Under the pieces are notes generated by a model. That model searched no databases, was not told the DNA's origin, and saw only the letters and a program-made list of their open reading frames with translations. Below are positions 30,739 to 45,709 of a stretch of 48,952 nt of DNA, piece after piece. Source of the DNA: an uncultured virus (IMG/VR IMGVR_UViG_3300005259_000041). Lineage: Duplodnaviria > Heunggongvirae > Uroviricota > Caudoviricetes. Where the stretch lies: the IMG/VR virus record IMGVR_UViG_3300005259_000041; one strand, written 5' to 3'. Made by a program: the position numbers and the translations under genes. Within the stretch, counting starts at the first letter, position 1; the number at the start of each line of letters is the position of its first letter.

Positions 30739-30889
30739 TGTTCTTTCTCTTTCTGTATTTCCTTAATCAGTTTTGAAAACCAATGATGTTGCCAAGTAGC
30801 CCGAACAGATCGGGTGCGAAATCTCATTTTGAGATTTTTCATAGTCTTCTCCAAGAATTTACGATTAACATTAATTGTTTTCACGTATA

Positions 30890-30918
30890 AATATAATCCC
30901 TGATTATCAGAATGTCAA
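30890..30918 (-). promoter_or_regulatory. Sigma70-type promoter
   Basis: TTGACA-N17-TATATT on minus strand. Confidence 0.8.
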
Positions 30919-30944
30919 TGAGGGTGCGCGGCATATAATAAAAG

Positions 30945-30963
30945 AAGACCCCGAAGGGGTCTT
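30945..30963 (-). terminator. Terminator closing the microprotein operon
   Basis: AAGACCCC-GAA-GGGGTCTT flanked by A/T tracts. Confidence 0.8.
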
Positions 30964-30998
30964 TTCTCGGCCCAATACCCTTTTTTCCGCTACTTTTA

Positions 30999-33900
30999 TT
31001 ATCCCGCCGGGAACATTTTCTGATAGCATTTCCACATCGTCCAATTCCTTGAAATGGAATGATGTTTATCGGTCGTCTCGAAGGTACCCCAAGAGGCTTT
31101 AGTCCATGTTATGAATGACATATCATTCTCCATTTTATCTGAAGAGAATAGAAATACCAAGTGTTGGCTATTTTATGTGCGGGTCTCATCTGTTCTGGAT
31201 TATTCATATTCATTTCCCACAATCCATTTTCTATAATACGAATATATGTTCCAGACCCTAGAGATACTGGGTGGTCCGAATCGGGGGCCACCGAAGGGAT
31301 GGACTGAAGTATTAGAATATGTTCTTACCCAATCTATAAACGTCACCATTCACTCAATATCCATTTTTTATAATATCCATATAATTTCCATGTTTGGGAA
31401 ACGGAAAGGAGAGTTCCGACCCCATCGAAGGGGAAAATAGGCTCAGTCTCATATAAATCTCTTCGTAATATCATCCAATCCCTAAACGTCATTCTCCGAA
31501 GACACTGTTCCGTAAGTCTCATTTAACACCTTCATGGAAAAATTTATACAATTTCCAAAGTCGCCAAGTTCCAGTCGGAGTGTCATTAAGAGCTGGATCG
31601 GATAGGCTTAAACCCGATGTGTTATCATTATATACTCTTAAATAAAGGCGGGACCATTCTTTAAAGCTCATTTAGCTCTTTCTAATCGTGCCTCGCGGCT
31701 TACCTGTTCTCTCCACTTTAAATATAAAGCGGTGTTTACGTCTATTATCTTGCGCATCCTACCGGTAGTCCATAATTCATAAGTCCGCCATGTTTCCCGC
31801 ATGGAATAATTATGATCGTTCATTACTATGGGTTTCATTTCTTCCTCTTAGTAGATGGTAATATAAGATTTTTACGCTCTTCTGACATATCATTCTCAAA
31901 GACAGCATACCACACGTAAATGTCCCAAGTCGACCTAATATTCATTGCCATTCCGAAAATACCCGCCTATGAATCTCCGAAGCCGGAGGCCCAAAGGCAA
32001 GATACCAAATCCAAGTGATGTAAATGCTTTTGGACTTTTCCGCTTTAATTACTTTCATGTCTTCCATAGGGGTCCAAATATACGATATATAGGGGTCCAA
32101 AAACACGATACCAGAACCAAGTGAGATTAATGCTTTTGGATTCATCCGCTTTCATTACTTTCATTTCTCATCCTCATACTGACAGGCAATTTTTATATAA
32201 TCCTTCCAGTTGAAGGAGGGATTGCGCTCTATGTGATGCCGGAGAAGATATGCCCGTAATAATTTATAATGGAACCGGCCCCAGGTGGAACTAATGTTAT
32301 TCATCGCCCTAAAGCCAACTGATAGGAAGCGAATCTCTCCAATTCCTCTTTTAATCTAAGAAACATCTCATGTAACATCCAGGTGTTGGAAGGAGTATCA
32401 GAAAAATTCAAATCCTCCCTCCATACCCATTCGGCAAAAGACAATTCCGTAATACTCCTCGAATACATTTCAGCATCAAACGGACGCATTTATCTATACC
32501 TCTTTTCCAGAAAACGCCAGTGTTTATAGATGACATCATATGTCTCTTTGCAATCGAGATAGGGATAACATATCCAAGTACGGGCAATACTGGGTTTATA
32601 TGGTTTGGCCATCTTTCGCTTCATTGCCCAAAGATCTGCCCCAATGGCAAGGACTATTACACCGAAAAACAACAATACGGGGACTAAAGGTGAAAGGGAA
32701 ACCATATTTAATATTCTCCGTCATATTCGCTATAATATAAGGTATCATATACTTTCCTGTAAAACTGCCACGCGAAACAATGCCAAGTATTACGTATACT
32801 GCGCTTATTATATTTCCGATGTCTTATCGAATCGGCAATGAAGTGGGAACAGATAACCAGGGTCATAATAATTACTGATCCCAAATATATCAAAACGCCA
32901 CACCATCCGTTCATAGTAAACATTAGACTCCCATTTCCCGTTTTCGTCGTGGGATATATTCATAACGCCAAGTGTCCCGAATGGAGGAGCTTTGAGTTTC
33001 TCCTTTTAAAGCATCCCGAATTTCGGCACCAGCAATTAACATAAGACCCATTATCCCTATGGCAATTCCAAAAATAGTAATAAACATTTCAATTCCTATG
33101 GCCATTTAATTTTTCCAATTCCCCAAGCCTTCTATAATAATCTAGGACTTCGGTTAAATGTGGATCAGAAACATATCTAATCCAAACATCCTTAATATTT
33201 CTCATAATGTTCCCTTATGCGTGTCGCTCATACCACTTACGTAAACCGAGTTTGTATAAGTAAATGGTCCAAGTGCCCCAAACATTAATCATAATGCTCC
33301 CCGAACTCGCCTATATTCATAAGCGGTTAAATAAAAACTCGCCCAAGCCAACCATGTCTGCCGAACGGTCCTAATGCCAGTTCCAGAGGTTTCAAAGGCA
33401 TGATCCTCATAAAGCCAGTATTTGTAACTACCGGGTGGGCAATAGATTGGCACGATAATATCTCCAAAGGGCCCAAGTTTCCTGCGGAGTATCCGTAAGG
33501 ACGGCAAATTGCAATGACCGAGCCCATTCTATAAACGTATACTGATATAAGTTAAAGGAATCGCTCATAATGCCCATACTTTCTTTGCCAAAGGGAAACA
33601 TAATATAAGTCTTCTTTATATCTCAACCATAACTGCCAGTTTAATCCAATATGGGTATCGGGTTCATAGGGAGATAGGTTTTTAGAAATCAGCCAGTCTT
33701 TAAAGGTAACCTCTGAAATCTCACAAAATCTCATTTATAAGTTCCTTTCCTTAAGCCAGTGTAATAGCTTTTCCATAAAACCCAGGTAAGCCATATGCCA
33801 GTACTATATGATCCCAAAGGAGGGGTTCCATAGGTACGTGCATATAGCCAGTCTTTAAAGGTTACTTGCATTTTTAAAGCTTCCTATAGCATTTCCATAA

Positions 33901-34699
33901 ATACCAAGTCTTCCATACTGGCATAATACCATTGCCCAATACTCCTAACCAATCATTCAAAGACATCCATCCAGCCCAATGTCTATTCGCGCCCAAAACA
34001 CCGGGATAATCATATACAAATTCGCCCCGCTGTACACTGGCAATAAATTCTTTCAGGGTTACATCACGGGATACATAATTCATAATTATCTCTTCACTAT
34101 CCTATATAACCTGACTTTAAAAACAGCATTAATCCAAATCACATTGCCGGGAACGAACATGGAAGAACTCGAATCCGGCCATGCCTTACCCGTCACCCAA
34201 CGCCATAAAATAGAACCATAAGGAGCATCAGCAGGTTTTCTCATCGCTTTAACTTATCTTCAGATTCTTGTATTTTAGAATTAGCACGCTTTATGGCCCT
34301 AGTCCAGGAAGTACACCATAACCAATTCTGCCAAGTTACATTTATATTCATTTTCTTTCCATAAGAGCGCACCATGCCTTAGACCAAGCGTGTCGGGCCC
34401 AATTTAACTTAATACTCGTCAGGATATGAATTTTAAGAGTAGGATTATTGATTACGTTTTTAAACTTCATTTCTTCCTCGCTATTAAATACCATCCATAT
34501 GCATCCCATGTCCAAGAGATAGAAACAACTCCATTACGAGGGCCAAGACACATACTAAGGAATTCTCTAAAGGTCATCATTGTCCTACATACCCCCAGGC
34601 TACCCGATAACGACTAAACGCTTTCCATGTCCAATCTATAGAAACAGCCTTAGGAATGGGACTCAAATACATACTGAGGAATTCTTTAAAGGTTAGCAT
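30999..34699 (-). other. Operon of 26 consecutive TW-motif microprotein genes (25-71 aa)
   Basis: Hand-translated, mostly ATGA-overlapping: 34577-34699, 34467-34580, 34348-34470, 34241-34351, 34086-34244, 33874-34083, 33731-33871, 33552-33734, 33428-33568, 33289-~33453, 33215-33292, 33089-33205, 32923-33105, 32708-32923, 32490-32705, 32301-32489, 32161-32304, 32045-32164, 31942-32058, 31835-31945, 31668-31838, 31519-31671, 31343-31522, 31200-31349, 31109-31213, 30999-31121. Confidence 0.85.
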
Positions 34700-34700
34700 T

Positions 34701-35177
34701 CTATTTCTTCATCTCTAAAAGAGCAGCCAGTTCCAGAAAGGTAAGGATACTGGTTTCATTCATATTGGCATTTATAACAATGTCACAGTCTATAAGGACA
34801 TAAGTCCCACGAGAAGAGTCAGTATACATATTATGGTTGGATATGGCTTCTCTCAGTATTCTAGTTTTACCCCATGGACATTTGGAACAGTCTAATATGC
34901 CACTATCCGTAAGTATACAATTCGGATTCTTTATCTCATTATGCCGGGTGATACTTCCCCGTGCGGCTCTCCATCGTTGATTAGGATTAACGACTAGTTC
35001 AGCACGATTATAACGCTGTTTATACTGTTCGTTTAAATGCTTAAACCATTGATTATGCTCTTCTTCTGCACTGTCTACCGGCTCGGGAATACACGGGTTA
35101 AAGTCGCGTATGTACGAGTGTATACGGGTGAGAGTGGCATCGAGGATTTTAATCTGGTCTTCTGTCAGGGCTCTCAT
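34701..35177 (-). CDS. Cys4-family protein heading the microprotein operon
   Basis: NC...DCSKCPW...DC; TSILTFLELAALLE. Confidence 0.7.
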   Translation of the reverse strand: MRALTEDQIKILDATLTRIHSYIRDFNPCIPEPVDSAEEEHNQWFKHLNEQYKQRYNRAELVVNPNQRWRAARGSITRHNEIKNPNCILTDSGILDCSKCPWGKTRILREAISNHNMYTDSSRGTYVLIDCDIVINANMNETSILTFLELAALLEMKK

Positions 35178-35192
35178 TATGGCCTCAGTATC

Positions 35193-35221
35193 AATATAAT
35201 TTAGAAGGGGTCAATTGTCAA
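35193..35221 (-). promoter_or_regulatory. Sigma70-type promoter of the microprotein operon
   Basis: TTGACA-N17-TATATT on minus strand. Confidence 0.8.
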
Positions 35222-35492
35222 GTGTAAGTCGGCCGGAGTAAATACGGGAATATATAAGGGTTAAAATCGTTCTAAGGGAAGGCTGGGCAAGGGGTGTAAC
35301 AGGAAGATAGAAGGAACGGTTAAATGTAGGTAGATACTGGGTTTGAGATAGATAAGTAGGAGAGGAAGGATACTGGGAAATGGTGGCGGAAGGATGGGTG
35401 AATACTGNNNNNNNNNNNNNNNNNNNNNNNGGTGAGTTCTTTATGTCGCAGTGGAGGAGAAAGGAGGGGAGATAAGTAGGAGGATACTGGCT

Positions 35493-35599
35493 AAAGTGAG
35501 TCATTTATGACACACTGTATGCGAGGTTAAGTGCGATAATAGGGTATAATATGAGGAATGTACTCTGATAATCAAGGTGTGACAAAAATGACTCACTTT
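35493..35599. repeat. 23-bp imperfect inverted repeat (21/23) in non-coding junction
   Basis: AAAGTGAGTCATTTATGACACAC (35493-35515) and GTGTGACAAAAATGACTCACTTT (35577-35599). Confidence 0.85.
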
Positions 35600-35803
35600 C
35601 ACTTAAGTTGCGAAAATACTACCCTCCAGACAATAAAAGTCTGAGGTAATATCAGTATCTATCCTTCCCTAAGTCTAAGCCGAGCATCAAGCCGCTTGCA
35701 CTTGTGAGAGACTTGGCCAGTATCACAGTATAGCGCGACATTGTGTTGTGCTAGATACTGGCGCGAGTGTAAGAGACTTAGATACTGGCGCGGAGGTAGT
35801 CCC

Positions 35804-36196
35804 ATGAACATCCTCAACGCGAAGGGCCTGGGCTTCAAGGTCACCGTCAAGACCGTCAAGAAGCACAAGTTCGTCGAAGGGCGCCCCGAGGAGTCCCACA
35901 AGGGCGTCTACAACCTCACCCTGAGCGGGGGTGGCAAGTCCCACGAGGCGAAGAACATCGTCGGCACCCACGACCTCTTCGCCAAGGCTTACGCCATGGC
36001 CGCCATCTACTTCCCCAAGGGCTACGCCAAGTTCCAGGCGCAGGCCAAGGTGGAGCGCGACGCCAACAAGGCCGCCGCGAAGGCCAGCCGCAAGGCCAAG
36101 AAGGCCGCCGCCGCGCCGGCCGACCTCAAGGGCCTCCTCACCCTGCTCAACCGCCAGAAGAAGGGCAACGGGAAGGTGCTGGCCCTGTTCCTCTAG
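35804..36196 (+). CDS. Lys/Ala-rich basic protein, paralog 1
   Basis: GGAGG RBS; near-exclusive C/G third codon positions; aligns end to end with 44151..44552. Confidence 0.85.
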   Translation: MNILNAKGLGFKVTVKTVKKHKFVEGRPEESHKGVYNLTLSGGGKSHEAKNIVGTHDLFAKAYAMAAIYFPKGYAKFQAQAKVERDANKAAAKASRKAKKAAAAPADLKGLLTLLNRQKKGNGKVLALFL

Positions 36197-36352
36197 GCCA
36201 GTATCTATGTCCCTACCCTTCCACCCCAGTATCCTCTTAGCATAGATACTGGGCACAATCTGAATTAACTCCTGGGGNNNNNNNNNNNNNNNNNNNNNNC
36301 TGGCTGCTGATAGATAAGTATCTATCACAACGGGAGGAATTAAGGAGGCGCC

Positions 36353-36823
36353 ATGGAGAACGAAGTACCTCTAGACAATCCGTTCTTTTACGCGTATCTT
36401 AAGGCACTAGTCCGGTTCGTGGCAGACCCTACGCAGCAGCGTCTAGATGCTGTCAATCACCAAAGGAACTTGCGCTCAGAGAAGACGTGGAAAGCCCCAG
36501 TGGCAGAACATGGATACTGCCACCCCTTTGGGGACTATGCGTCTGAGAATGGAGTAAGCTGCATAGACGGGAGTGACATGGATGCTCGGGAGGAAGGCGA
36601 GGGGCGTTGTTGTCCTATGTTAAGCGCTTCTACTTCCCTTCTCAGACAGGAATGTCAACTCGCGTGTGGCTTCTCTGCGGACGTGGTGCTGAGAGTTATC
36701 GAGACTCTGGCGGCATATGAGGCAAGGTATCCAGACTGGCCCCGGTGGAAAGAGTTAAAGGAGGAAGACCATGGGACAGGCGAAACTGAGGGGGACCAAG
36801 GAACAGCGGGTCGAGCAGGCTAA
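36353..36823 (+). CDS. Cys4-family-like protein
   Basis: YCHPF...C...CCPM...C; VVLRVIETLAAYE. Confidence 0.65.
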   Translation: MENEVPLDNPFFYAYLKALVRFVADPTQQRLDAVNHQRNLRSEKTWKAPVAEHGYCHPFGDYASENGVSCIDGSDMDAREEGEGRCCPMLSASTSLLRQECQLACGFSADVVLRVIETLAAYEARYPDWPRWKELKEEDHGTGETEGDQGTAGRAG

Positions 36824-36941
36824 GGCTCGGCGGGTGGGGGTGCCGGTCAATGTCACGACCCGCCTCCAGAAGAACGGCAACCTCAAGAGGGGGTTCGCGG
36901 GCCTGCTCCTCTCCCGCCTCACCACCCTCTTCCACGCCTAG
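36771..36941 (+). CDS. Small basic protein
   Basis: MGQAKLRGTKEQRVEQAK; GGAGG RBS; not in ORF track. Confidence 0.6.
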   Translation: MGQAKLRGTKEQRVEQAKARRVGVPVNVTTRLQKNGNLKRGFAGLLLSRLTTLFHA

Positions 36942-36954
36942 GAGCAAGAAGGCA

Positions 36955-37113
36955 ATGCCCGAAAAGGAAGAAGAGTCCTCGGAAGAAGTCATGTCCGAGC
37001 TGCGGAGGACAGTGGCTCTGAAGGCGGCGGTGGACTTTGCGAAGGAGCAGACCACCACCTCCGAGGCAGTCGACATCGCCCGCACCTTCGAGGAATATCT
37101 GAAGTTCGGATAG
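36955..37113 (+). CDS. Small hypothetical protein
   Basis: MPEKEEE...ALKAAVDF...ARTFEEYL; high GC3. Confidence 0.6.
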   Translation: MPEKEEESSEEVMSELRRTVALKAAVDFAKEQTTTSEAVDIARTFEEYLKFG

Positions 37114-37609
37114 ACCTCGCCAGTATCTAGAGCTGGCGGCTAGGAGATAAGATACTCCTTCTGGCCGCCATAATGTAGATACTGACATAGTCGCGCCAGT
37201 ATTAAGATACTGATACTGGCTGCCCCTTTTCGAATAGGAGAAGAACATGCGATTTAAGTCGAAGATTATCTACTTCGGGGCACTCACATTCAAGAATGGC
37301 ATTGTCCGTACGTGCCATGTCTGGATGGGGGTGGACAATCGCTATCGTGTCTGGGACGGTATCCGGTTCTACTCCCCGGATGACGTTCTCCCCGCCAGCC
37401 TCGCCTTTGCCTAGTCTGTCCTTCATGGTGAACGGCGGACTATGGCGCGCCGTTTGATCGCCTATAACCTAAGGAGGTCGGTCATGGACTATGGTTAGCA
37501 GGTTAGGATAGTCCAATCTCCAGATCTAGCAGGCCGGCCACAGAAACATTGTCGGCCTGCTATCATGTGGATACTGGACGAAATAGAGGGCCCCAGAAAG
37601 GAGGTGTCC

Positions 37610-37957
37610 ATGCAGTATTTCTGGCTGTTTCTCCTCGCCATCTGCATCGTTCTTATCGTGCGGAACGAGCGAGTATACGAGTGGAGGGGCGCCCAGATTC
37701 GCCTGATTAGCAAGACTACTAAGGCGCTCATCGAGTATTACTACAATGGGGACTGGTCTACCCCCAACGGATGGGAGGAACATCAGGCCCGCTTCGAAGA
37801 AATCCTCGATGCATTTTACAATGTGCACGAGGCTCGGTCCTATGTTGGCACGCTTCTTGATATTGGCTGCTGGGATGGGGCCAAGTATCTGGAGGCTACC
37901 TACATCGGGAACCTGGACGGGGCTGCTCGGGAAGAGATAGCCCAGATGAAGAGATAG
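37610..37957 (+). CDS. Membrane-anchored hypothetical protein
   Basis: AAGGAGGT RBS before MQYFWLFLLAICIVLIV. Confidence 0.7.
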   Translation: MQYFWLFLLAICIVLIVRNERVYEWRGAQIRLISKTTKALIEYYYNGDWSTPNGWEEHQARFEEILDAFYNVHEARSYVGTLLDIGCWDGAKYLEATYIGNLDGAAREEIAQMKR

Positions 37958-38182
37958 GAGGCAAGGCCATGGTACTGAAGCCGGGAAGTCGTCTGCCTCA
38001 TATCCGGGTCGACACCCTGGACGTGAGCGAGGCCATGTACGAGGACGTGCGGGAGAAGATGGACACCCTTCGAACTCGCACTCCCCCCAAGCCCACCCTG
38101 TATCGCCTGGAAGGAGGCAACGAGGAGTAGTCGTCATCCTGATACTGGGCCCGAACATGTCATACTGAAAGGGAGGTGACAG

Positions 38183-38470
38183 ATGAGTAACAAGCAGTCC
38201 CGTGCCGCAGCCAGGACCAACGGGAATCTTCTCGTTGCCCTCTCCACCATCAAGGACTTGGGCGAGGAGATTCAGCGCCTCAACAAGGTCATCCTCAACG
38301 GCACCCTCTCTTCCCTGGAGATGAGGGACATGCTCCTGGACGATCTCCACACCTGCGCCCTGGCCGATGATGAGGTCTGGGCCTTCAACCGGAAGAGCCA
38401 GGAGGCCTTCGAGCAGTTCGTCGGCAGCCAGGGGGAGATGCAGCCCCCCGAGCCCGAGACCATCTCCTAG
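38183..38470 (+). CDS. Hypothetical protein
   Basis: GGAGGT RBS, high GC3. Confidence 0.7.
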   Translation: MSNKQSRAAARTNGNLLVALSTIKDLGEEIQRLNKVILNGTLSSLEMRDMLLDDLHTCALADDEVWAFNRKSQEAFEQFVGSQGEMQPPEPETIS

Positions 38471-38534
38471 TATCCAGAGCCAGCCAGTATCTTTAAAGTC
38501 GTGAGATACTGGCTGTAATGTGGATACTGGATTA

Positions 38535-39225
38535 TACCACCGCATGTCGAAACCGGGGCGCAGCAAAGCCCAGCCAGTTTACCCTGGCTACGTGACGGTG
38601 GATAAAGGGTAGGTCCAGTGATACTGCACATCACCTAATCCCCGGCGTGGACAGCATGTCTGAGACGAGGCTCTTAGACCAGATGTGACGGTACGAGTCG
38701 CCGCCTTATGCGACGACGGAGAGCCGCTTTAGCGACTCTAAAGACTGGGCACCTAAACAGCAGGCGGGTGGCTAGTTTAGGAAGATACAGCATTAACCGC
38801 TGCATGTAAGGGTATGGATCCCCGTTGGTTGGAAACAAATCCCAATCAAGCGTGACGGCGGTTAAGTGAGGGTAGGCTTAGCGAAGGTTGATACTGCATG
38901 CGCACGGCACTCTACGGCCAAGTCGGGGCGTGACAGTATAATCCGTGCTGAAGCAGGCGGAAGGCTAAGCGGTTAGACGGCAGGAGGGTGGCCAGTCTAA
39001 TGAATGATACTGATTCAACTGTCGCATGCATTCCCAGTGTATGGGGAGACTTATATTCCCATACATCAAAAGGTGGATGGCGAGCGATAGATGCTCACCT
39101 ATACCAGCGTGTCGACAGTAGGTAGGTTGGCCGTTCGTTGTTACTGTAGATGCGAGAGAAGTCTCTCCCTACGGTAAAGAAGAAGGGGCCGACGTGATAG
39201 CAGCAGGAGGGTGGCGGCTATCTAT
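38535..39225 (+). ncRNA. Candidate large structured ncRNA made of three tandem A+B hairpin modules
   Basis: No sense ORF of 60 aa or more; repeated loops GGTAG (x3) and GCAGG(C/A)GGGTGGC (x3) closed by covarying stems. Confidence 0.75.
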
Positions 39226-39240
39226 AGAAAGGGGGTGCGG

Positions 39241-39558
39241 ATGGTACAACAGTTGGACATTCATCAAGCAGTAGCAGCAGCGAAGCATCTCATTCGCTTC
39301 CCCCACAGTAGAAAGGCGTGGGAGACACTGGCGAGCAACACTTATCCCATGCATGGTTCGGCTGATGCAACCTGCCCCTTTGACTGTCAGGATTGTCCGT
39401 TGAGAGGGGGCTGTTCTATTCTTAACCTGCCTGAGTTTGTCTGTGGTCGGACTACCCATCGGGAGGCGACTAAGACAAATAAGATGGGAGAGGTCATCCT
39501 CCTCCTCATCCAGTATGTGGCTTATGTGGAGTCTAAGGGGGTGCTAGATGAAACATAA
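39241..39558 (+). CDS. Cys4-family protein
   Basis: AWETL...CPFDCQDCPL...VC; GEVILLLIQYVAYVE. Confidence 0.75.
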   Translation: MVQQLDIHQAVAAAKHLIRFPHSRKAWETLASNTYPMHGSADATCPFDCQDCPLRGGCSILNLPEFVCGRTTHREATKTNKMGEVILLLIQYVAYVESKGVLDET

Positions 39559-39567
39559 GGGTACATC

Positions 39568-39810
39568 ATGATTTTCACCTTCATAAGCGTAAGAGCGCCT
39601 GGCAAGAAAATCATCATTGATTCCATTGCCAAGGACAAGGGCACCTTTCAACCCGGCTCGTATGTACCCACCAACGAGCAGGAGTTACTGGGGGTTCTTG
39701 AGGAAGCCTACGAGATTCAGGAAGATCTCATATGGCAAATGGAGCACCGACCAATGTGGGCACGGGCTAATGGCTACGATATCATCTACGGTAATGGGGA
39801 GGAGCCTTAG
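39568..39810 (+). CDS. Hypothetical protein
   Basis: 80 aa in operon. Confidence 0.6.
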   Translation: MIFTFISVRAPGKKIIIDSIAKDKGTFQPGSYVPTNEQELLGVLEEAYEIQEDLIWQMEHRPMWARANGYDIIYGNGEEP

Positions 39811-39825
39811 TTAAGGAGGTACGCC

Positions 39826-40203
39826 ATGGAGTTCGGATGGAGAGACTATCGGGTGTCTGGCCCGGTGTGGAACGAGAGGGGGCTCTTTTTCAGTTTCATC
39901 ACACCGGCCGATTGCGTGGACCCCTGCCCCTGCTGCAACGAACTGTCGGTGCACTTGTCGGCTGCCATCGTGGAGGAGATTAACAACTCCTCCAACATTC
40001 ACTACCTCGACATCGAGCGCGTTGACGGTGGTGGGGCCGGTGGCGGGGAAGCCTTCGGGAACCGGGGGCGCCTCAAGGACATCGTGAAGGACCCGGAGGA
40101 GGGAATCATCTTCCGCTATTACAATGGGCGGAAGAAGGCGTACACAGTAACCCTCTCTCATGAGAAGTGGCAGGAACTGAGCCACGTTCGGATGCCCCTT
40201 TAG
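39826..40203 (+). CDS. Hypothetical protein
   Basis: AAGGAGGT RBS, 125 aa. Confidence 0.7.
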   Translation: MEFGWRDYRVSGPVWNERGLFFSFITPADCVDPCPCCNELSVHLSAAIVEEINNSSNIHYLDIERVDGGGAGGGEAFGNRGRLKDIVKDPEEGIIFRYYNGRKKAYTVTLSHEKWQELSHVRMPL

Positions 40204-40392
40204 TATGGGAGGAGCCTTAATCTTTATCCTGGCCCTTTCCTCTTCCTGAAACCCAGTATACATTCTTCCCCCTCCCTCTAAAATGGGAGAATCGCATAGT
40301 CGCAGCCAGTATCAAATCCATGTGTTGATGTACAGGATAAGATACTGACTGTTCTAATGCCTCGCTATCTCCCCTTTCAATAAGGAGGATGG

Positions 40393-40779
40393 ATGGGAAA
40401 TCCGTGGGTGAAAGAACAAGTCGGGATTGTGAACCAACTGCTGAAGGACCCAGATAATGTCCAACTCTGGGAACAGTTGGCCTGTATTACGGGGACTCAA
40501 CGCCTAGACGACAATACTACTGTCCAATGTTGCCGGTTTGACCCATACCGAAATGCCATTGAGTTAAGCCGGTGTGATTCCTGTCCCCTGAGGGTGGACA
40601 GAACGGACGAGATGAGAGGACTGGGAGGGCCAATAGCACAATACCTCTGTCGTAGGTATCGTGGTCAGCAAACCTGGAACATTGAGTCTGGTGAAATCGT
40701 CCGCAGGCTGCTGGAGTTCCTGGCCTTTATCCAGGTCGAGCCTCCAACCCTGAAGGTCAAGAAGAGCCGTGCCCGCTAG
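40393..40779 (+). CDS. Cys4-family protein (tandem copy 1)
   Basis: LWEQL..ITG...C...CDSCPL...YLC...GEIVRRLLEFLAFIQ. Confidence 0.8.
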   Translation: MGNPWVKEQVGIVNQLLKDPDNVQLWEQLACITGTQRLDDNTTVQCCRFDPYRNAIELSRCDSCPLRVDRTDEMRGLGGPIAQYLCRRYRGQQTWNIESGEIVRRLLEFLAFIQVEPPTLKVKKSRAR

Positions 40780-41119
40780 ACGACCAAAGACACCAGCAGA
40801 AACGGCTTGGCAAGTTCGTCTGGCAAAGGAACTGCTAGATGAACTACATAACCCAGTCCTATGGGCACAGTTAAGTGATATTACTGGCTATCGGTATAGA
40901 GGCAATACGCCAGTAGATTACTGTCCAGACTTGCCCGATGGAGCCAGATGTAAGCATTGCCCCTTGAGAACTGGGGACGTTCCACCTGAGATGAGCAGGA
41001 TGGATCAGTATCTTTGTCGTCCCCAATGGATTAACGGGGCATTGGTTGGGGGTTCTGGCCTGGAAGACGGAGAGTTAACCCGAAGGCTGCTGGAGTTCAT
41101 AGCCTTCATTCAACTATAG
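40769..41119 (+). CDS. Cys4-family protein (tandem copy 2)
   Basis: LWAQL..ITG...C...CKHCPL...YLC...GELTRRLLEFIAFIQ. Confidence 0.8.
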   Translation: MPARRPKTPAETAWQVRLAKELLDELHNPVLWAQLSDITGYRYRGNTPVDYCPDLPDGARCKHCPLRTGDVPPEMSRMDQYLCRPQWINGALVGGSGLEDGELTRRLLEFIAFIQL

Positions 41120-41146
41120 GAGACTGCCTATGAAGCACGGTGTACC

Positions 41147-41506
41147 ATGAGCAGATTTAGGGCTTGTCCAAAGGGTCAAGTCAAGGCTGCACAGTATCTT
41201 CTTCATCACCTGACAGACCTTGAAGCCTGGAAGGAGTTGGAGAAAGTTACTGGAGATACTGGCTCGTTCGAGAAGGGCGTACACCGTTGCAATGACCCGA
41301 TGTTTCCCGAAGGGCCACGAGGGAAGTCGATTTACTGTGACCATTGTCCACTCAACCTGGTTCTCACCGGGCGTTTTGATAATGGCCACTACCTCTGTCG
41401 GTACAAGCATCCGAACTACACCCGCTTTACTCTGTCGGACGGTGAGATAACTCTGAAACTCCTGGAGTTTATCGCATACGTCCAAGCGACTTTCCCGAAC
41501 GCATGA
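41147..41506 (+). CDS. Cys4-family protein (tandem copy 3)
   Basis: AWKEL..VTG...C...CDHCPL...YLC...GEITLKLLEFIAYVQ. Confidence 0.8.
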   Translation: MSRFRACPKGQVKAAQYLLHHLTDLEAWKELEKVTGDTGSFEKGVHRCNDPMFPEGPRGKSIYCDHCPLNLVLTGRFDNGHYLCRYKHPNYTRFTLSDGEITLKLLEFIAYVQATFPNA

Positions 41507-41765
41507 TTACCTGGGCTGAACGGAACGCTAAGACNNNNNNNNNNNNNNNNNNNNNNNNNNNNNNNNNNNNNNNNNNNNNNNNNNNNNNNNNAAGCGTGGC
41601 TGCCTTCAATGTCCCCTCTTCATCAAAGAGTGTTTGCGCGATGGGGGCCAAACACAGGCCGACAGTTACATCTGCTGCAAGGGAATCTGGGACATGAGGA
41701 TAGACTTAAGTGAGGGCGAAATCACTCGTCGCTTGCTAGAGTTTATCGCCTATGTCCAACTCTGA
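41503..41765 (+). CDS. Cys4-family protein (tandem copy 4; spans N gap)
   Basis: After the gap a different frame reads CLQCPL...YICC...GEITRRLLEFIAYVQL*. Confidence 0.7.
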
Positions 41766-42000
41766 AAGGAAGGATACTGCGATGGCGAACATCAGTCAGC
41801 GTCAGCGTGCGGCGGAGCGTCAGGTTTCGGTTTCCAAACTGCGCCGCGACTCGCTCAAGACCAACCGCAGTTTCGGGCAGACGACGAAAGTCAACATGCC
41901 CAAGAAGAGCAAGGTCCGCTAGTATCCAGAATCAGTATACTGGCTTTAACATAGGTCAGTATACTGAATTGTGGACACCAGCCGCTAGAAAGGAGGGAAG

Positions 42001-42531
42001 ATGAAATCGTTGCGGGGACTTCGGAGCGTCGGTAGTGGCTACTTGAAGGAAATGTTCAATGATCCCAAGTATGCCCGGTTCGTCGTGGAGTCTACCATCA
42101 AGTTCATNNCGAAGTTTCCTGATGCTGGGCTGATTGTTACTGGCCTGAGCGGAAGCCTGCTGGGGTATTCCATTATGCTCCAGGGTGAAATCCCCGTAGC
42201 CTTCGTCCGTAAGCCCTATAGGGTCGAGCAGTCACACGGAATGCCCATCGAAGGTTACATGGTGGAGAAGGTCATCTTCTTCGATGACTTAATCTCCGGC
42301 GGAGGTACCTTCGACTTCATCGGGAAGAGCATCGAGAAGTGGAATAAGAACCACTCCTCGCCGACCACTCTCAAGGCGGTCTTGCTCTGGAACCACTACG
42401 ACAGTGTCAATGCTGGAGTCACGGGTTCTCATCCCTTCTATCGCCTGGGAACTTGGCGGGTTGGATTTGAGAGATGGGACCCCGATGAGAGTGTCTGGAA
42501 CAAACTCAAGACCCCCAAGATTCGGAGGTGA
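42001..42531 (+). CDS. Type I phosphoribosyltransferase-domain protein
   Basis: IVTGLSG, AFVRK...SHG, PRPP-binding loop VIFFDDLISGGGT. Confidence 0.8.
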   Translation: MKSLRGLRSVGSGYLKEMFNDPKYARFVVESTIKFXXKFPDAGLIVTGLSGSLLGYSIMLQGEIPVAFVRKPYRVEQSHGMPIEGYMVEKVIFFDDLISGGGTFDFIGKSIEKWNKNHSSPTTLKAVLLWNHYDSVNAGVTGSHPFYRLGTWRVGFERWDPDESVWNKLKTPKIRR

Positions 42532-42532
42532 C

Positions 42533-42790
42533 ATGAACCAAAGGCAGAGGAAACTGGAAGTCGTGCGGGAGTGCTATCGGAAAGTCATCCTCGACCAGGG
42601 TAAAGCCTTGAAGTTGAGGGACCGGCTCCAGAGAATCTCCCAGTTGCACGGGCGAAATGCCGATGGTTCTATGGTCTTTCTCGTCCGGGTCTGCAACTGC
42701 TGCTGGAAGAACCCGAACCACGACCCGCACTACGAAATCCTCAAGGAGACCGAGGTCCGCAACATTCCCCATTACGACGTTCTTTCGTAG
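42533..42790 (+). CDS. Hypothetical protein
   Basis: GGAGGTG RBS before MNQRQ. Confidence 0.65.
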   Translation: MNQRQRKLEVVRECYRKVILDQGKALKLRDRLQRISQLHGRNADGSMVFLVRVCNCCWKNPNHDPHYEILKETEVRNIPHYDVLS

Positions 42791-42800
42791 GGAGGGAATC

Positions 42801-43250
42801 ATGGTACTGGCAGACTTTCATCCTGGCGACCGAGTTATGGTCGTGAAAGAAGAGAACTGGGGAAATCGCCAGAGACTCGTGAGGAAGACTGGGGTGGTGG
42901 TCAAGACCCTGAATTGTCACGAGGATGGCGTGGTGATGGTTAACATGGACGACAGGAGGTATAGGCAGCAGACCTTCTATCCGTCCCAACTCAGTATCCT
43001 TGCTCCCTGCAACATTCCCGATACTGGGGAGTTTACGCTACTGCCCGACACGGTAACCGACGTGGACTTTCGGCCCGGAGATAAGGTTCGGGTTCTGAAA
43101 GACCCTCTGATTTTTCTGATTGGGCAGCGGGGGACAATCCAGGGGCTTCGTATCATTAACACGGAGATACTGGTCGACGTGAAGATGGACGACCCGAGAC
43201 TTCCCCTTCGGAACTTTTACCCCGAGCAGTTGGAGAGGGTTCGGGAGTAG
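42801..43250 (+). CDS. Tandem KOW/SH3-like domain protein
   Basis: Two repeats DF.PGD.V.V...G.V/I...V.MDD.R...FYP.QL. Confidence 0.7.
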   Translation: MVLADFHPGDRVMVVKEENWGNRQRLVRKTGVVVKTLNCHEDGVVMVNMDDRRYRQQTFYPSQLSILAPCNIPDTGEFTLLPDTVTDVDFRPGDKVRVLKDPLIFLIGQRGTIQGLRIINTEILVDVKMDDPRLPLRNFYPEQLERVRE

Positions 43251-43260
43251 GATTTATACT

Positions 43261-43336
43261 GGGCAGTTCGACCAGCGGCGAGGTCCCGGTCCTCATAAGA
43301 CCGTCGACGGGGGTTCGAATCCCTCACTGCCCACCA
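43261..43336 (+). tRNA. tRNA with CAT anticodon (elongator Met or Ile2)
   Basis: Acceptor GGGCAGT/ACTGCCC, anticodon arm CGGTC-CTCATAA-GACCG, GTTCGAAT, encoded CCA; lacks initiator features. Confidence 0.9.
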
Positions 43337-43337
43337 T

Positions 43338-43412
43338 GGGCCCGTAACTCAATGGTAGAGTACCGCCCTTTTAAGGCGGGAGTTGAGGGTTCGAGTCCCT
43401 CCGAGCCCACCA
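43338..43412 (+). tRNA. tRNA-Lys(TTT)
   Basis: Anticodon arm CCGCC-CTTTTAA-GGCGG, GTTCGAGT, encoded CCA. Confidence 0.92.
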
Positions 43413-43450
43413 CTTATCTTACACAGGCGAAAGCCAGGAAGGAGGTAACC

Positions 43451-43828
43451 GTGCCGTGCAATTGCGGTAATTGCCATTTCGGATTCAACTGTTCCAAAGA
43501 GTGGCAGGCTCTCCACCCTGGAACGACTTGGTGGGCCTGCGAGTTCTGTGGACTCTATCAGGCTTCGGCTCCCATGTGCAACGGGTGTGAGATGCAGGAG
43601 GATAACAAGCCCGGCATGAAGCGGTATGAGTTTAAGCGGCGCTCGCCATTCTCGGGTATGCTCCACTCCATGGTTATCCAGATGACGGAGCGGCAGTTCG
43701 CGGAACTCGCCCAGCCCAGCGGTCGGCACATTCAGGACATTCTCCCCCACTGCACACCCGACGAGAGGGAGTTCATCATGACCGGTATCACCCCCGAGGA
43801 ATGGGAGCAGACCTTCGGGAAGAAGTAG
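43451..43828 (+). CDS. Zinc-finger phage protein
   Basis: GGAGGT RBS and GTG start; several CxxC; IQDILPHCTPDEREFIMTGITPEEW tail. Confidence 0.7.
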   Translation: MPCNCGNCHFGFNCSKEWQALHPGTTWWACEFCGLYQASAPMCNGCEMQEDNKPGMKRYEFKRRSPFSGMLHSMVIQMTERQFAELAQPSGRHIQDILPHCTPDEREFIMTGITPEEWEQTFGKK

Positions 43829-43835
43829 TTACTTT

Positions 43836-43921
43836 GCGGCTGTGGTGGAATGGCATACACTACAGACTTAAAATCTGTTGCCCGTAAGGGATTGGGGGTT
43901 CGACTCCCCCCAGCCGCACCA
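43836..43921 (+). tRNA. tRNA-Leu(TAA)
   Basis: Acceptor GCGGCTG/CAGCCGC, ACAGA-CTTAAAA-TCTGT, long variable arm, CCA. Confidence 0.92.
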
Positions 43922-44150
43922 GCCCTTCCCAGTATCTTATCCTCGTCCGACCCGAGAAGATACTGCTTACTGGTATCCCGCAATGGGATACTGTACAATC
44001 GTAGGGCCCACGATATGGCATAGGAAGGATAAGCCTTACCTACCTATTGTGGGGACGGAGAGTAGTACCGCAATACTGGATATTGGTGGGTCCAGAATAC
44101 CGGTACTTGCGGCAACCCTGAAACTGGACTCAAATCAGGAGTTACATCAG

Positions 44151-44552
44151 ATGAACATCTTCAAGACCAAGGGCATCGGCGTCGCGTTCACCGTGAAGGT
44201 CACCCGCAAGCCCAAGTTCGTCGAGGGCAAGCCCGAACTTTCCCAGAAGGGGATCTACTCCCTGACGGTGAAGGGCGGAACCAAGACCTACACGACCACC
44301 TGCACGGGCAGCGGCGAGTTGTTCGCCAAGGCCTGGGCGCTCCTCGCGGCCCACTTCCCCAAGGCGTACGAGAAGGCCACCGCCATCGCCAAGGCCCAGC
44401 GCACCGAGAACCGCGCCAAGGCCAAGGCCGTGCGGAAGGCCAAGAAGGCGGCCGCCGCGCCGTCGGACGTGAAGTCCCTGCTCACCCTGCTCAACCGGCA
44501 GGGCAAGGGCAAGGGCAAGGGCAACGGCAAGATCGTCGCCCTCTTCCTGTAG
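44151..44552 (+). CDS. Lys/Ala-rich basic protein, paralog 2
   Basis: AGGAG RBS before MNIFKTKG; KFVEGKPE, KAKKAAAAP, LLTLLNRQ, GNGKIVALFL shared with 35804..36196. Confidence 0.85.
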   Translation: MNIFKTKGIGVAFTVKVTRKPKFVEGKPELSQKGIYSLTVKGGTKTYTTTCTGSGELFAKAWALLAAHFPKAYEKATAIAKAQRTENRAKAKAVRKAKKAAAAPSDVKSLLTLLNRQGKGKGKGNGKIVALFL

Positions 44553-44934
44553 TCGGAACTTAACCGACTACCACAATCTGAATTAACTCATGGGGAAGCC
44601 CTTAGTCGGGCTTCCTCAATCCTGCCAACACCCTATCGCTGGAGGGGCAGGGTAAGCGGACTTAGTACAGTTCGCAGGCGATGGGGTATAGAGTCTAGAG
44701 GGAGGTGCATAATCAAAACAGGCGGGAAGGTGGTGGTCTCGCGCTCCCTAATCGTTATGACGGAGGAGGGCAAGGTGATTTGTACTTGCGCTCCCATCTT
44801 CGGTGAACTGAGTATCGGGCTTGAGGAAGCCAAAGAAAACGCCCAGTTCATTGCGGATGCCTTCAACGCCGTCAACAAGAGAGCGCAGACCTCCAAGGCG
44901 AAACCCAAACGGAAGAAGTGACAGGAGGTTTACG

Positions 44935-45198
44935 ATGAGCGAGAAGAAGGGAACCCTCGGCAGCGTTCTGGCGAAAGCCCTCCACAACACCCCCATCGAG
45001 GCTCGCATCAAGGAGGAGAAGTTCAACGCCTCCCAGCGCGAGTGGCTCAAGGACATCCTCATGCGCGACCTGCGTCTGGTCGAGGCGAAGGTCCTGACCG
45101 ACGCCATCCACGAGGCGTCCATCCGCATCAACAAGGGCGAGAACGAGTGGCGCCTGCTCCGCGACAAGGCCGTGCGGGCGCTGTCGCTCCGCAAGTAG
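44935..45198 (+). CDS. Hypothetical protein
   Basis: AGGAGGT RBS, high GC3. Confidence 0.7.
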   Translation: MSEKKGTLGSVLAKALHNTPIEARIKEEKFNASQREWLKDILMRDLRLVEAKVLTDAIHEASIRINKGENEWRLLRDKAVRALSLRK

Positions 45199-45199
45199 T

Positions 45200-45514
45200 A
45201 TGTTTCTGGCAGAACAGCACATCCTCCTTAGCGAACTGGTTGAGACGTACATCGACACATACCGAGACAGGATGTCGATGCGTCTCGCTGATGGCAGGAC
45301 CCCCACTGAAGTTTTGGAAGCCTTGACGAATGTCGATTTAGATGACCCAGAGGCGGCCAAGAAGTTTGATGCAATCCTCGGCAACCAGATTTGGACTACT
45401 TACCAGTGTGGGGAATGCTTCAAGCAGTTTGAGAGGGTGGTCTTTCTCCAACAGAGCGACCACAGGGGCATCTGTGAAGATTGCCTCAAGAGCGCTCTGG
45501 GCCTCTTTGCTTAG
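45200..45514 (+). CDS. Zinc-finger protein
   Basis: QCGEC...ICEDCLKSAL. Confidence 0.7.
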   Translation: MFLAEQHILLSELVETYIDTYRDRMSMRLADGRTPTEVLEALTNVDLDDPEAAKKFDAILGNQIWTTYQCGECFKQFERVVFLQQSDHRGICEDCLKSALGLFA

Positions 45515-45709
45515 GCACATCTAGTCTACTCCGGATAGGTCGGCCAGGTACATTCGCCGGGATTATCTTGGAGGTGGGATAGGCATTGGCATAGGGCTAT
45601 GTGGGTGTGAACGGTCGCAAGGCCCGGAGTGACCACATGTCATTAGTTATGTCATGTAAGCCCTATCCCTTTAAGGCTTTACCAGTATCAACCTTCGTAG
45701 GAGACAGAC

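What the first reader, a model, noticed from the sequence alone, without database searches (positions are those of the whole stretch)
38535..39225. Large ncRNA candidate built from a triplicated two-hairpin module with covariation
Seen: about 690 nt with no sense ORF, ordered A1-B1-A2-B2-A3-B3. B hairpins carry GCAGG(C/A)GGGTGGC at 38760, 38980 and 39203, closed by different but fully pairing stems (CTAAAC/GTTTAG, TTAGAC/GTCTAA, GATAGC/GCTATC; inner AGC/GCT vs GGC/GCC). A hairpins have loops ending GGTAG (about 38605, 38868, 39117) closed by TGGAT/GTCCA, GTTAAGT/GCTTAGC and GTCGAC/GTTGGC. Each A hairpin is followed by GATACTG or GTTACTG, and A1 and A2 begin with CGTGACGG, which pairs back to ACTGCA(C/T). 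5' CATGTCG (38542) can pair with CGACGTG (39190). A GATACTGG cluster with a -10-like element lies just upstream. Known: phages carry large ornate RNAs (GOLLD, ROOL). Inference: a multivalent scaffold or protein-sponge RNA, possibly a new class.
Basis: partly seen in the sequence, partly recalled or inferred. Interest (0 to 1): 0.87.

Follow-up and report, generated by a model that had tools for sequence, protein, structure and literature searches.

The report
Modular structured RNA in jumbo phages
The 770-base gene-free gap most likely encodes a large folded RNA built from three diverged copies of one complex module; a distantly related giant phage carries a four-copy version in the same place, it matches no catalogued RNA family, and its job is unknown.

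Summary
The gap 38471-39240 is non-coding (stops of all three kinds in all six frames). It holds three tandem units of about 220-260 nt on the + strand. The B hairpins are confirmed exactly. The A hairpins exist in the window but are not conserved. The better-supported module is: a clamp helix P1 (variable outer stem, bulged A/U, inner CAUG/CGUG), a joiner AGG(G)UA(A)G, a 6-7-bp helix P2 enclosing a second clamp, then the B hairpin with loop AGGNGRGUG. A 332,730-bp IMG/VR phage (G001) has the same element between homologues of both flanking genes (29% and 48% identity), with four units. Across the 7 units, 234 of 235 curated pairs are standard (22 G-U) and 26 of 38 helix positions change on both sides. 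Anchored null tests, tool pair counts and a strand-specific RNAalifold signal (z -5.5 on +, about -1 on -) agree. Rfam gives nothing. B hairpin and clamp occur almost only at this locus. No expression data or third homologue were found. Verdict: a conserved structured RNA of an undescribed family (about 0.85). Its function is inferred only; a multivalent binding scaffold is my leading guess, with a cis-acting leader as the main rival.

The parts
38183..38470 (+). Upstream flanking ORF (95 aa, no family)
   Evidence: ORF list. No Pfam or PHROG hit. 29% identical to L046:953-1237 in phage G001.
38481..38515 (+). Hairpin from an inverted pair of the block-wide GATACTGG motif (13 bp, 9-nt loop), just after the upstream stop codon
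   Evidence: Inverted repeat I1. Mean pair probability 0.99 in the MFE fold. The same arrangement lies at L046:1340-1369 in G001.
38523..38529 (+). Third GATACTG copy, at the head of unit 1
   Evidence: The equivalent copy is at L046:1381-1387. In G001 its ACUG is part of the outer stem of helix P1 of unit a.
38537..38601 (+). Unit 1 P1 clamp: CCACCG+CAUGU / ACGUG+bulged A+CGGUGG, closing two small hairpins
   Evidence: (6/6 outer pairs, null P 0.002).
38606..38612 (+). Unit 1 joiner AGGGUAG
   Evidence: AGG(G)UA(A)G is present in 7 of 7 units.
38613..38750 (+). Unit 1 P2 domain: GUCCAGU (38613-19) pairs with ACUGGGC (38744-50). It encloses the inner clamp 38621-38631/38683-38694 and the invariant hairpin 38720-38739.
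   Evidence: 7/7, null P 0.012. Recovered by RNAalifold (columns 108-114/291-297)..
38753..38780 (+). B1 hairpin: 6+3 bp stem with a bulged A, loop AGGCGGGUG
   Evidence: 37.0 bits.
38795..38863 (+). Unit 2 P1 clamp: AACCGCUG+CAUGU / GCGUG+A+CGGCGGUU
   Evidence: (null P 0.004).
38869..38875 (+). Unit 2 joiner AGGGUAG
38876..38970 (+). Unit 2 P2 domain: GCUUAGC/GCUAAGC enclosing the inner clamp 38891-38901/38928-38939 and a degenerate B-like 13-mer at 38953
   Evidence: 7/7, null P 0.006; null P 0.013.
38973..39000 (+). B2 hairpin, loop AGGAGGGUG
   Evidence: 40.2 bits. The stem is identical to that of B-b in G001.
39018..39119 (+). Unit 3 P1 clamp: ACUGUCG+CAUGC / GCGUG+bulged U+CGACAGU, closing two hairpins
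   Evidence: (null P 0.016).
39120..39125 (+). Unit 3 joiner AGGUAG
39126..39193 (+). Unit 3 P2 domain: GUUGGCC/GGCCGAC enclosing the hairpin 39141-39177
   Evidence: (7/7, null P 0.008).
39196..39222 (+). B3 hairpin, loop AGGAGGGUG, with an A.G mismatch in place of the bulge
   Evidence: 27.9 bits.
39229..39558 (+). Ribosome-binding site (AAAGGGGGUG) and downstream ORF 39241-39558 (105 aa, Cys-rich, no family)
   Evidence: 48% identical to L046:2277-2627. No other relative among 5.8 billion protein clusters.

Best explanation
Window 38471-39240 most likely encodes a long (about 700-770 nt) structured RNA on the + strand, made together with the surrounding rightward small-gene block of an uncultured jumbo phage. 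It consists of three diverged tandem copies of one module. Each module has four parts: (i) a clamp helix P1, with a variable outer stem, one bulged A/U and an almost invariant inner CAUG/CGUG stem, which caps a variable two-hairpin insert; (ii) an invariant purine joiner AGG(G)UA(A)G; (iii) a 6-7-bp helix P2 enclosing a second clamp or hairpin; and (iv) a B hairpin with a bulged A or a mismatch and an invariant 9-nt loop AGGNGRGUG.

Shown: the repeats, the helices, their compensatory variation, the strand specificity, and conservation in a second phage that carries four modules.

Inferred: the covarying helices are a scaffold that displays the same invariant elements (two bulged clamps, the joiner and the B loop) three or four times. 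The RNA would therefore act as a multivalent binding platform for several copies of one partner, a phage or host protein or possibly the ribosome. It would either titrate that partner or assemble it. The RNA could be a free species cut from the operon transcript or the long leader of that transcript.

My odds: about 0.85 that it is a genuine conserved structured RNA of a new family, and about 0.35-0.4 that multivalent binding in trans is how it works.
For: Non-coding.

Repeats: the B 13-mer occurs 3 times exactly and only here.

Homologue: G001 (IMG/VR contig, 332,730 bp) was reached through a 64%-identical protein. It has a 939-nt gap between homologues of both flanking genes with 4 B motifs, all on the + strand. 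The best blastn match of the 1601-nt query lies inside the gap, not in the ORFs (E 3e-9).

Collinearity: U1~b, U2~c, U3~d, with 354 of 674 aligned columns identical.

Structure:
- P2 is 7/7 complementary at the anchored position in 3 of 3 window units (null P 0.006-0.012) and in 1 of 4 G001 units; the other 3 G001 units are 6/7 (P 0.14-0.36).
- The clamp outer stem is 6/6 at 9 of 15 YGUGW sites (P 0.001-0.016), 5/6 at 2, and absent at 4.
- Curated helices: 234 of 235 pairs standard, 22 G-U, and 26 of 38 helix positions with changes on both sides.
- B hairpin on a MAFFT alignment: 79.4% of cells paired against 62.2% in shuffles, 0 of 500 shuffles as high.
- P1 on a MAFFT alignment of 4 units: 40 of 40 cells paired, slid controls 15-59%.
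- RNAalifold total energy -106.3 against -71.5 +/- 6.3 for column shuffles; the - strand gives -78.5.
- Single-sequence z scores: -9.28 and -5.69 on +, -5.45 and -2.85 on -.

Specificity: the B-hairpin model hits only the 3+4 known sites in the 48,952-base window and the whole of G001, plus one 10.6-bit noise hit. The strict clamp gives 5 hits in the window, 4 of them in the target, against 1.25 expected.

Multivalency: every invariant element recurs once or twice per unit in 7 of 7 units.
Against: Only two genomes carry it, so the covariation statistics are weak and partly hand-curated. The RNAalifold covariation term is no better than in shuffled alignments (21.75 against 22.5). Enforcing the module costs 14 kcal/mol (window) and 24 kcal/mol (G001) relative to the free MFE, and only 63 of 113 and 66 of 143 module pairs appear in the free MFE. 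Unit d of G001 lacks the CAUG/CGUG signature.

There is no transcript evidence. No terminator separates the RNA from the downstream gene, which favours a leader over a free RNA. No binding partner is identified: the neighbours have no family. No clamp or B sites were found elsewhere that would mark the natural targets of a titrated regulator. The window-specific A hairpins show that the fold is not settled.
Confidence: 0.4

Rival explanations
1. The RNA is a cis-acting leader. The whole modular RNA would be the 5' untranslated region of the downstream small-gene operon and would control its translation, stability or read-through, for example by binding a ligand or protein cooperatively at 3-4 modules.
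For: It lies on the same strand as the flanking genes. Its position directly upstream of the same Cys-rich gene is conserved in both phages. No terminator-like site lies between the last B hairpin and the start codon. The last B hairpin ends 6 nt (window) or 16 nt (G001) before the ribosome-binding site. In the window the A hairpins compete with P1 and P2 in all 3 units, as a switch would.
Against: 700-900 nt and 3-4 modules is far larger than known leaders. No conserved alternative pairing that hides the ribosome-binding site was found. The A-type alternative is absent in 4 of 4 G001 units. No riboswitch or leader family matches.
Confidence: 0.25
2. It is a self-contained ornate RNA, in which tandem modules within one chain play the part that separate chains play in homo-oligomeric RNAs such as ROOL and GOLLD. 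The invariant loops and the joiner would then make RNA-RNA tertiary contacts, and no protein partner would be needed.
For: It is large and has many junctions. It lies in a phage. Its invariant single-stranded purine elements fit A-minor or loop contacts of the kind that hold ROOL and GOLLD together (abstract of PMC12286853). The module number varies between 3 and 4.
Against: No match to any such family. No conserved loop-loop complementarity was found: the CCGCCU loop at 38701-06 could kiss the B1 loop, but the orthologous G001 loop cannot (by reading). No tRNA lies within 3 kb in G001.
Confidence: 0.15
3. It is an array of three or four separate small RNAs, one per unit, each made from its own GATACTG-type signal or cut out of a precursor.
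For: Each window unit begins with a GATACTG-like word (38523, 38786 variant, 39006) and ends with a stable hairpin. Unit number differs between the phages.
Against: The internal GATACTG words are not conserved in G001. There the same positions are covarying stem strands: AUACUG/CAGUAU becomes AUACCA/UGGUAU. The words lie inside helices that need them transcribed. The B hairpins lack U tracts.
Confidence: 0.1
4. It is a DNA-level element, such as an operator or iteron array, an origin or a packaging site, built on GATACTG sites and palindromes. The apparent RNA structure would be incidental.
For: GATACTG is strongly enriched over the whole 11-kb block and in the syntenic block of G001. Six copies lie in or beside the gap.
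Against: 22 of the 234 standard pairs are G-U, which would be A.C on the other strand or mismatches in DNA. The conserved-structure signal is strand-specific. The internal GATACTG copies are not conserved, whereas the helices are. GC is 0.55-0.57, so the region is not AT-rich.
Confidence: 0.05
5. It is a decaying tandem duplication with no function, and the resemblances are chance or recent common descent.
For: Only two genomes are known. The helices were partly chosen by eye.
Against: The three units were already distinct before the two phages diverged to 29-64% protein identity. The helices still pair through many two-sided changes, while the loops stay invariant.
Confidence: 0.04

Closest known systems
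ROOL and GOLLD RNAs (large ornate RNAs of phages and prophages)
   Same: A large (more than 500 nt), multi-junction, non-coding RNA carried by a phage, with few invariant nucleotides on a covarying scaffold and no known function. ROOL averages 581 nt with six multistem junctions, and both classes are often near tRNAs and in prophages (passages of PMC5737381). Both assemble into RNA-only multimers (abstract of PMC12286853).
   Different: No covariance-model match even at E up to 10. It is built from 3-4 internal tandem repeats of one module, which the passages and abstract I read do not mention for ROOL or GOLLD. It is known in only two jumbo-phage genomes. The nearest tRNA is 3-4 kb away in the window, and none lies within 3 kb in G001.
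CsrB/RsmZ-type sponge RNAs (recalled from general knowledge, not from a call)
   Same: A repeated hairpin displays the same short purine-rich loop many times on one RNA, which is the logic of multivalent titration.
   Different: The loop is AGGNGRGUG, not the GGA-centred CsrA site; only 2 of 7 B loops contain AGGA. The units are 220-320 nt complex modules rather than single hairpins. No CsrA gene is present in G001. The host is unknown.
Tandem riboswitches and long regulatory leaders (recalled)
   Same: Repeated structured modules directly upstream of a gene on the same strand, with no terminator in between.
   Different: No riboswitch or leader family matches. The size is several times larger. 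No conserved expression platform was found.
Y RNA / YrlA with Ro60 (TROVE) protein
   Same: A conserved helix with a bulged nucleotide serves as the protein-recognition element, and G001 encodes a TROVE protein.
   Different: G001 has its own YrlA-like RNA directly upstream of that gene, 145 kb away from this locus (41 bits, below the gathering score of 69). The target region gives no YrlA or Y RNA match.
Tandem modular RNAs noted earlier in this scan in other jumbo phages (AI notes, unchecked)
   Same: Arrays of 2-6 structured modules of about 200-400 nt in early-gene regions, also unmatched in Rfam.
   Different: No shared sequence words with any earlier window. Whether they are related could not be tested.

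Membership tests
GOLLD, ROOL, OLE, raiA, HEARO or any other Rfam 15 family | A match to the family covariance model at or near its gathering score | tested here: not met
   In the window at gathering thresholds, only 3 tRNAs. In 38300-39500 at E up to 10, only four hits of 12-17 bits to snoRNA or lncRNA models. In G001 at L046:1250-2350, three noise hits of 15 bits or less.
Large ornate RNAs (descriptive kind) | Longer than 500 nt with several multistem junctions and conserved structure | tested here: met
   About 700 nt in the window and about 870 nt in G001. Three or four P1 junction domains plus P2 domains. Covarying helices.
Large ornate RNAs (descriptive kind) | Adjacent to tRNA genes or in a prophage | tested here: inconclusive
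   It lies in a phage. The nearest tRNAs in the window are 3.1-4.0 kb downstream, and none was found in the 7.6 kb held around the G001 locus.
Large ornate RNAs (descriptive kind) | RNA-only homo-oligomer | not testable with these tools
   Needs mass photometry or cryo-EM.
CsrB/RsmZ-type sponge | Many GGA motifs in hairpin loops and a CsrA/RsmA partner | tested here: not met
   AGGA occurs in 2 of 7 B loops. No CsrA family match in G001. The host genome is unknown.
Y RNA / YrlA | A model match and adjacency to the Ro60 (TROVE) gene | tested here: not met
   No match at the locus. The TROVE gene and a YrlA-like hit lie elsewhere in G001.
Retron or reverse-transcriptase template RNA | A reverse transcriptase gene in the element | tested here: not met
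   No RVT_1 match in the complete G001 record. None among the 74 window ORFs scanned with Pfam.
Protein-coding region under another genetic code | A frame interrupted by only one kind of stop codon | tested here: not met
   Every frame has at least two kinds of stop codon and 5-17 stops in total.

The most novel reading that the evidence does not exclude
This would be a new class of giant-phage RNA in which one chain carries 3-4 ancient, diverged copies of a complex module of about 220-320 nt. It would be a single-chain, pseudo-symmetric counterpart of the homo-oligomeric ornate RNAs. Its repeated bulged clamps and G-rich loops would capture several copies of a host factor early in infection. 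In the window's phage each module could also flip between two folds (the A hairpin against P1+P2).
Probability: 0.2. Interest if true: 0.85.

Novelty: new variant of a known kind. Interest (0 to 1): 0.7.

Why it matters
Large structured RNAs of phages (GOLLD, ROOL) are among the least understood RNAs, and few families are known. This one has an unusual internal architecture. The same intricate module is repeated 3-4 times, and the copies are old enough to have diverged almost completely in their stems while keeping about 40 invariant nucleotides per unit. That gives a built-in set of natural variants for structure probing. It also gives a defined set of candidate recognition elements (bulged clamp, joiner, B loop) for pull-downs. 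If the RNA titrates or organises a host or phage factor, it would be a new mode of RNA-based host takeover in jumbo phages.

Tried and rejected
- Rfam at gathering and E-value thresholds, on the window and on the homologue: nothing (also on 15 of the 21 metagenome loci).
- blastn against 50,697 phage records with both RNAs: no match.
- Flanking proteins in IMG/VR as single queries: no relatives. As an alignment of the downstream protein: only G001 again.
- Downstream protein against 5.8 billion clusters: only itself.
- A pattern of two B motifs 195-225 nt apart, scanned in three collections. Viral contigs gave 1 locus, metagenomes 21 loci and genomes 14 loci. None of these loci proved to be a homologue. 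Most motif copies lie in long open frames (GC-rich coding sequence or protein-coding tandem repeats with peptides such as FSPDSRRVAY or AGGWHSLAL), and a few sit in short-frame repeats. None shares more than 13-20 nt with the target. This scan missed G001 because its spacings are 158, 226 and 306 nt.
- 22-nt B2 pattern: only G001.
- 17-mer GCGACTCTAAAGACTGG: G001 plus two chance loci that lack any B or joiner motif.
- Public sequencing runs: none was listed, and no RNA holder was listed.
- Stop-codon recoding: rejected.
- Conserved antisense small ORFs: rejected.
- Shine-Dalgarno mimicry by the B loop: rejected, because position 4 of the loop is A, C or U and only 2 of 7 loops read AGGAGG.
- Kissing between the 38701-06 loop and the B1 loop: not conserved in G001 (by reading).
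- Protein Atlas on the downstream protein: best feature score 0.82, which is at chance level.
- Earlier scan notes by sequence: no look-alike.
- Paper searches: 'jumbo phage / noncoding RNA / covariation', 'GOLLD / ROOL / phage' and 'phage / structured RNA / tandem / modules / intergenic'. None of the listed papers describes this RNA. I saw listings only, apart from the two papers cited.

Full report
SETTING. The window looks like part of a large uncultured phage. It encodes GyrB with an intein, an IMPDH/GMP-reductase-like protein, DnaJ, ThyX, Hsp20 and a pyrimidine-dimer glycosylase, together with many small ORFs without any family, and 3-4 tRNAs. No whole genome is held for it. The one protein I looked up sits on a 172,952-bp contig. 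At about 35 kb the GC content rises from 0.40 to 0.52-0.58 and the genes switch to the + strand. The finding lies in this block, between ORF 38183-38470 and ORF 39241-39558. The latter has the ribosome-binding site AAAGGGGGUG.

THE OBSERVATION. The gap 38471-39240 is non-coding. Every one of the six frames carries 5-17 stops of at least two kinds, and the longest + strand ORF is 45 aa. The 13-mer GCAGG(C/A)GGGTGGC occurs exactly three times, at the stated positions and nowhere else in the window. The 772-nt + strand folds with z -9.28, against -5.45 for the - strand. Same-length controls gave -2.45 and +0.12. In 200-nt windows, however, the region is not exceptional. It often occurs as an inverted pair plus a direct copy in the gaps before genes.

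A REVISED MODULE. The MFE fold showed that CGTGACGG is not the start of a hairpin. It is the 3' strand of a helix whose 5' strand lies 30-85 nt upstream. The pattern recurs four times in the window: a variable outer stem, one bulged A/U, and an inner CAUGY/RCGUG stem. I call this a clamp. The 7 nt right after each GGUAG pair perfectly with the 7 nt that end 1-2 nt before each B hairpin: GUCCAGU/ACUGGGC, GCUUAGC/GCUAAGC and GUUGGCC/GGCCGAC. With the search anchored at these positions, the null probabilities are 0.012, 0.006 and 0.008. Each unit therefore reads, in order: P1 clamp closing two variable hairpins, joiner AGG(G)UAG, P2 enclosing a second clamp or hairpin, and the B hairpin.

A HOMOLOGUE. 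Most routes to relatives failed (see Tried and rejected). The protein of ORF 16474-17451(-) has a 64%-identical relative on an IMG/VR contig of 332,730 bp, rated complete by CheckV (handle G001). G001 holds four B motifs on one strand within 740 nt and none elsewhere. They lie in a 939-nt ORF-free gap (L046:1338-2276), between a 29%-identical homologue of the upstream ORF and a 48%-identical homologue of the downstream ORF. The gap begins with the same inverted GATACTGG hairpin followed by a further GATACTG. The best nucleotide match of my 1601-nt query lies inside the gap, not in the genes. The two gaps are collinear, with window units 1, 2 and 3 matching G001 units b, c and d, and with 354 of 674 aligned columns identical. 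G001 has an extra unit a at the 5' end. The three units were therefore already distinct before the two phages diverged.

TESTS OF THE STRUCTURE.
- Clamps. Of the 15 YGUG(A/U) sites in the two RNAs, 9 have a 6/6 complementary outer stem directly abutting an upstream CAYR (null P 0.001-0.016 each). Two have 5/6 and 4 have none.
- P2. It is 7/7 in unit b, and a contiguous 6 bp in units a, c and d. The latter are not individually significant under my scoring, with P 0.14-0.36.
- Curated set. Over 7 units, 234 of 235 pairs are standard, 22 of them G-U. Changes on both sides occur at 26 of 38 helix positions, including 7 of 7 in P2 and 6 of 6 in the outer B stem. The inner clamp stem and the two loop-closing pairs of B hardly vary. 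These helices were chosen partly by eye, so the anchored tests and the tool counts matter more.
- Tool counts. On a MAFFT alignment of the 7 B hairpins, 79.4% of cells pair, against 62.2% in shuffles (0 of 500 as high), even though three hairpins have a shifted register. On the model-fitted alignment, which includes one noise row, the figures are 81.9% against 59.4%. On a MAFFT alignment of P1 from 4 units, 40 of 40 cells pair, against 15-59% when the partners are slid, and 3 pairs change on both sides (8 of 500 shuffles reach this).
- RNAalifold. On the two-sequence alignment it recovers P2 of two units, three B hairpins and the inner clamp. Its total energy is -106.3, against -71.5 +/- 6.3 for column shuffles (z -5.5) and -78.5 for the reverse strand. 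Its covariation term is not better than in shuffles.
- Against the model. Enforcing the module costs 14 and 24 kcal/mol relative to the free MFE, and only about half of the module pairs are in the free MFE. Unit d has no CAUG/CGUG signature.
- Specificity. The B-hairpin model finds only the 3+4 known sites in the window and in the whole of G001 (these sites were its training set). The strict clamp definition finds 5 sites in the window, 4 of them in the target, against 1.25 expected. It finds 5 in the G001 RNA.

THE A HAIRPINS. They are real complementarities in the window: 5, 7 and 6 contiguous bp, with empirical null values of 0.09, 0.015 and 0.036. The four G001 units manage only 2, 3, 3 and 1 bp. 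Because the A arms are the end of P1 and the start of P2, the A hairpin and P1+P2 exclude each other. This is either a lineage-specific alternative fold or coincidence. I leave it open.

WHAT IT IS NOT.
- No Rfam family matches.
- It is not coding, under any stop-codon reassignment.
- It is not a conserved antisense gene.
- It is unlikely to be a DNA-level site array. The G-U pairs and the strand asymmetry point to RNA. The internal GATACTG words of the window are replaced in G001 by different, still complementary stem strands; for example AUACUG/CAGUAU becomes AUACCA/UGGUAU.
- It is not a Shine-Dalgarno mimic, because loop position 4 is A, C or U.
- G001 has no reverse transcriptase and no CsrA.
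- G001 does encode a Ro60-like TROVE protein, but that gene has its own YrlA-like RNA beside it, 145 kb away.

HOW IT MOST LIKELY WORKS. This part is inference. The covarying helices form a scaffold that presents the same invariant elements three or four times: two bulged clamps, the purine joiner and the G-rich B loop. Repetition of recognition-like elements on one chain suggests a multivalent binder. The RNA would capture or organise several copies of one partner during the expression of this small-gene block. The absence of a terminator before the downstream gene, together with the conserved synteny, keeps a cis-acting leader as a serious rival (0.25). RNA-only tertiary assembly in the manner of ROOL and GOLLD is another (0.15). 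Their properties I take from passages of PMC5737381 and from the abstract of PMC12286853.

NOVELTY AND LIMITS. The family is absent from Rfam 15 and from the papers that my three searches listed. Earlier AI notes of this scan describe other tandem modular RNAs in jumbo phages, but none shares sequence words with this one. The evidence rests on two genomes. There are no expression data. The ends of the RNA are not mapped. The host is unknown.

Noticed in passing
window 34746-45689, and G001:C1:167949-181829: The word GATACTG(G) is heavily enriched and clustered in the syntenic small-gene block of both phages. The window has 41 copies against 4.9 expected. G001 has 40 against 6 for the control, and 27 of them fall in 14 kb. 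It often appears as an inverted pair 11-50 nt apart plus a direct copy 18-28 nt downstream, 16-45 nt before start codons. There is no -35-like partner. Whether it is a promoter, an operator or a processing hairpin was not settled.
   Followed up: partly
window about 35000: The GC content steps from about 0.40 to 0.52-0.58 where the gene orientation switches from - to +. Nearly all ORFs in the GC-rich block are without any family.
   Followed up: no
window 36-2174: The GyrB gene is interrupted by an intein: an Intein_splicing domain spans residues 213-529, between the Toprim domain and the GyrB C-terminal domain.
   Followed up: no
window 30723-34699, - strand: A chain of about 20 very small ORFs (40-72 aa) with overlapping stop and start codons, and no ORF of 80 aa or more on that strand.
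   Followed up: no
L055 (G001:C1:26500-32500): A Ro60-like TROVE ORF (L055:2337-3722, 461 aa). A YrlA-like RNA hit lies directly upstream (2093-2209; 41 bits, below the gathering score of 69; E 1e-6). Nine tRNA genes lie downstream.
   Followed up: partly
window 38953-38965: A fourth, degenerate B-like 13-mer (GCAGGCGGAAGGC, 2 mismatches) inside the P2 insert of unit 2. It has no hairpin of its own.
   Followed up: no
window 38696-38707 with 39208-39219, and 38742-38754 with 38986-38998: Long-range complementarities of 12 bp and 7+5 bp between unit 1 and the 3' halves of B3 and B2. They compete with the B hairpins in the free MFE fold. I did not check whether they are conserved in G001.
   Followed up: no
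window 42329-42411, - strand: ARAGORN calls a tRNA-Ser (UGA) here, but Rfam's tRNA model does not report it at its gathering score.
   Followed up: no
window about 35414 and about 36308: Runs of N (masked sequence) within the GATACTG-rich block.
   Followed up: no
L046:2700-2930: Downstream of the conserved Cys-rich gene, G001 appears to carry a second small ORF with a similar C-x2-C-P-L motif. It may be a paralogue.
   Followed up: no
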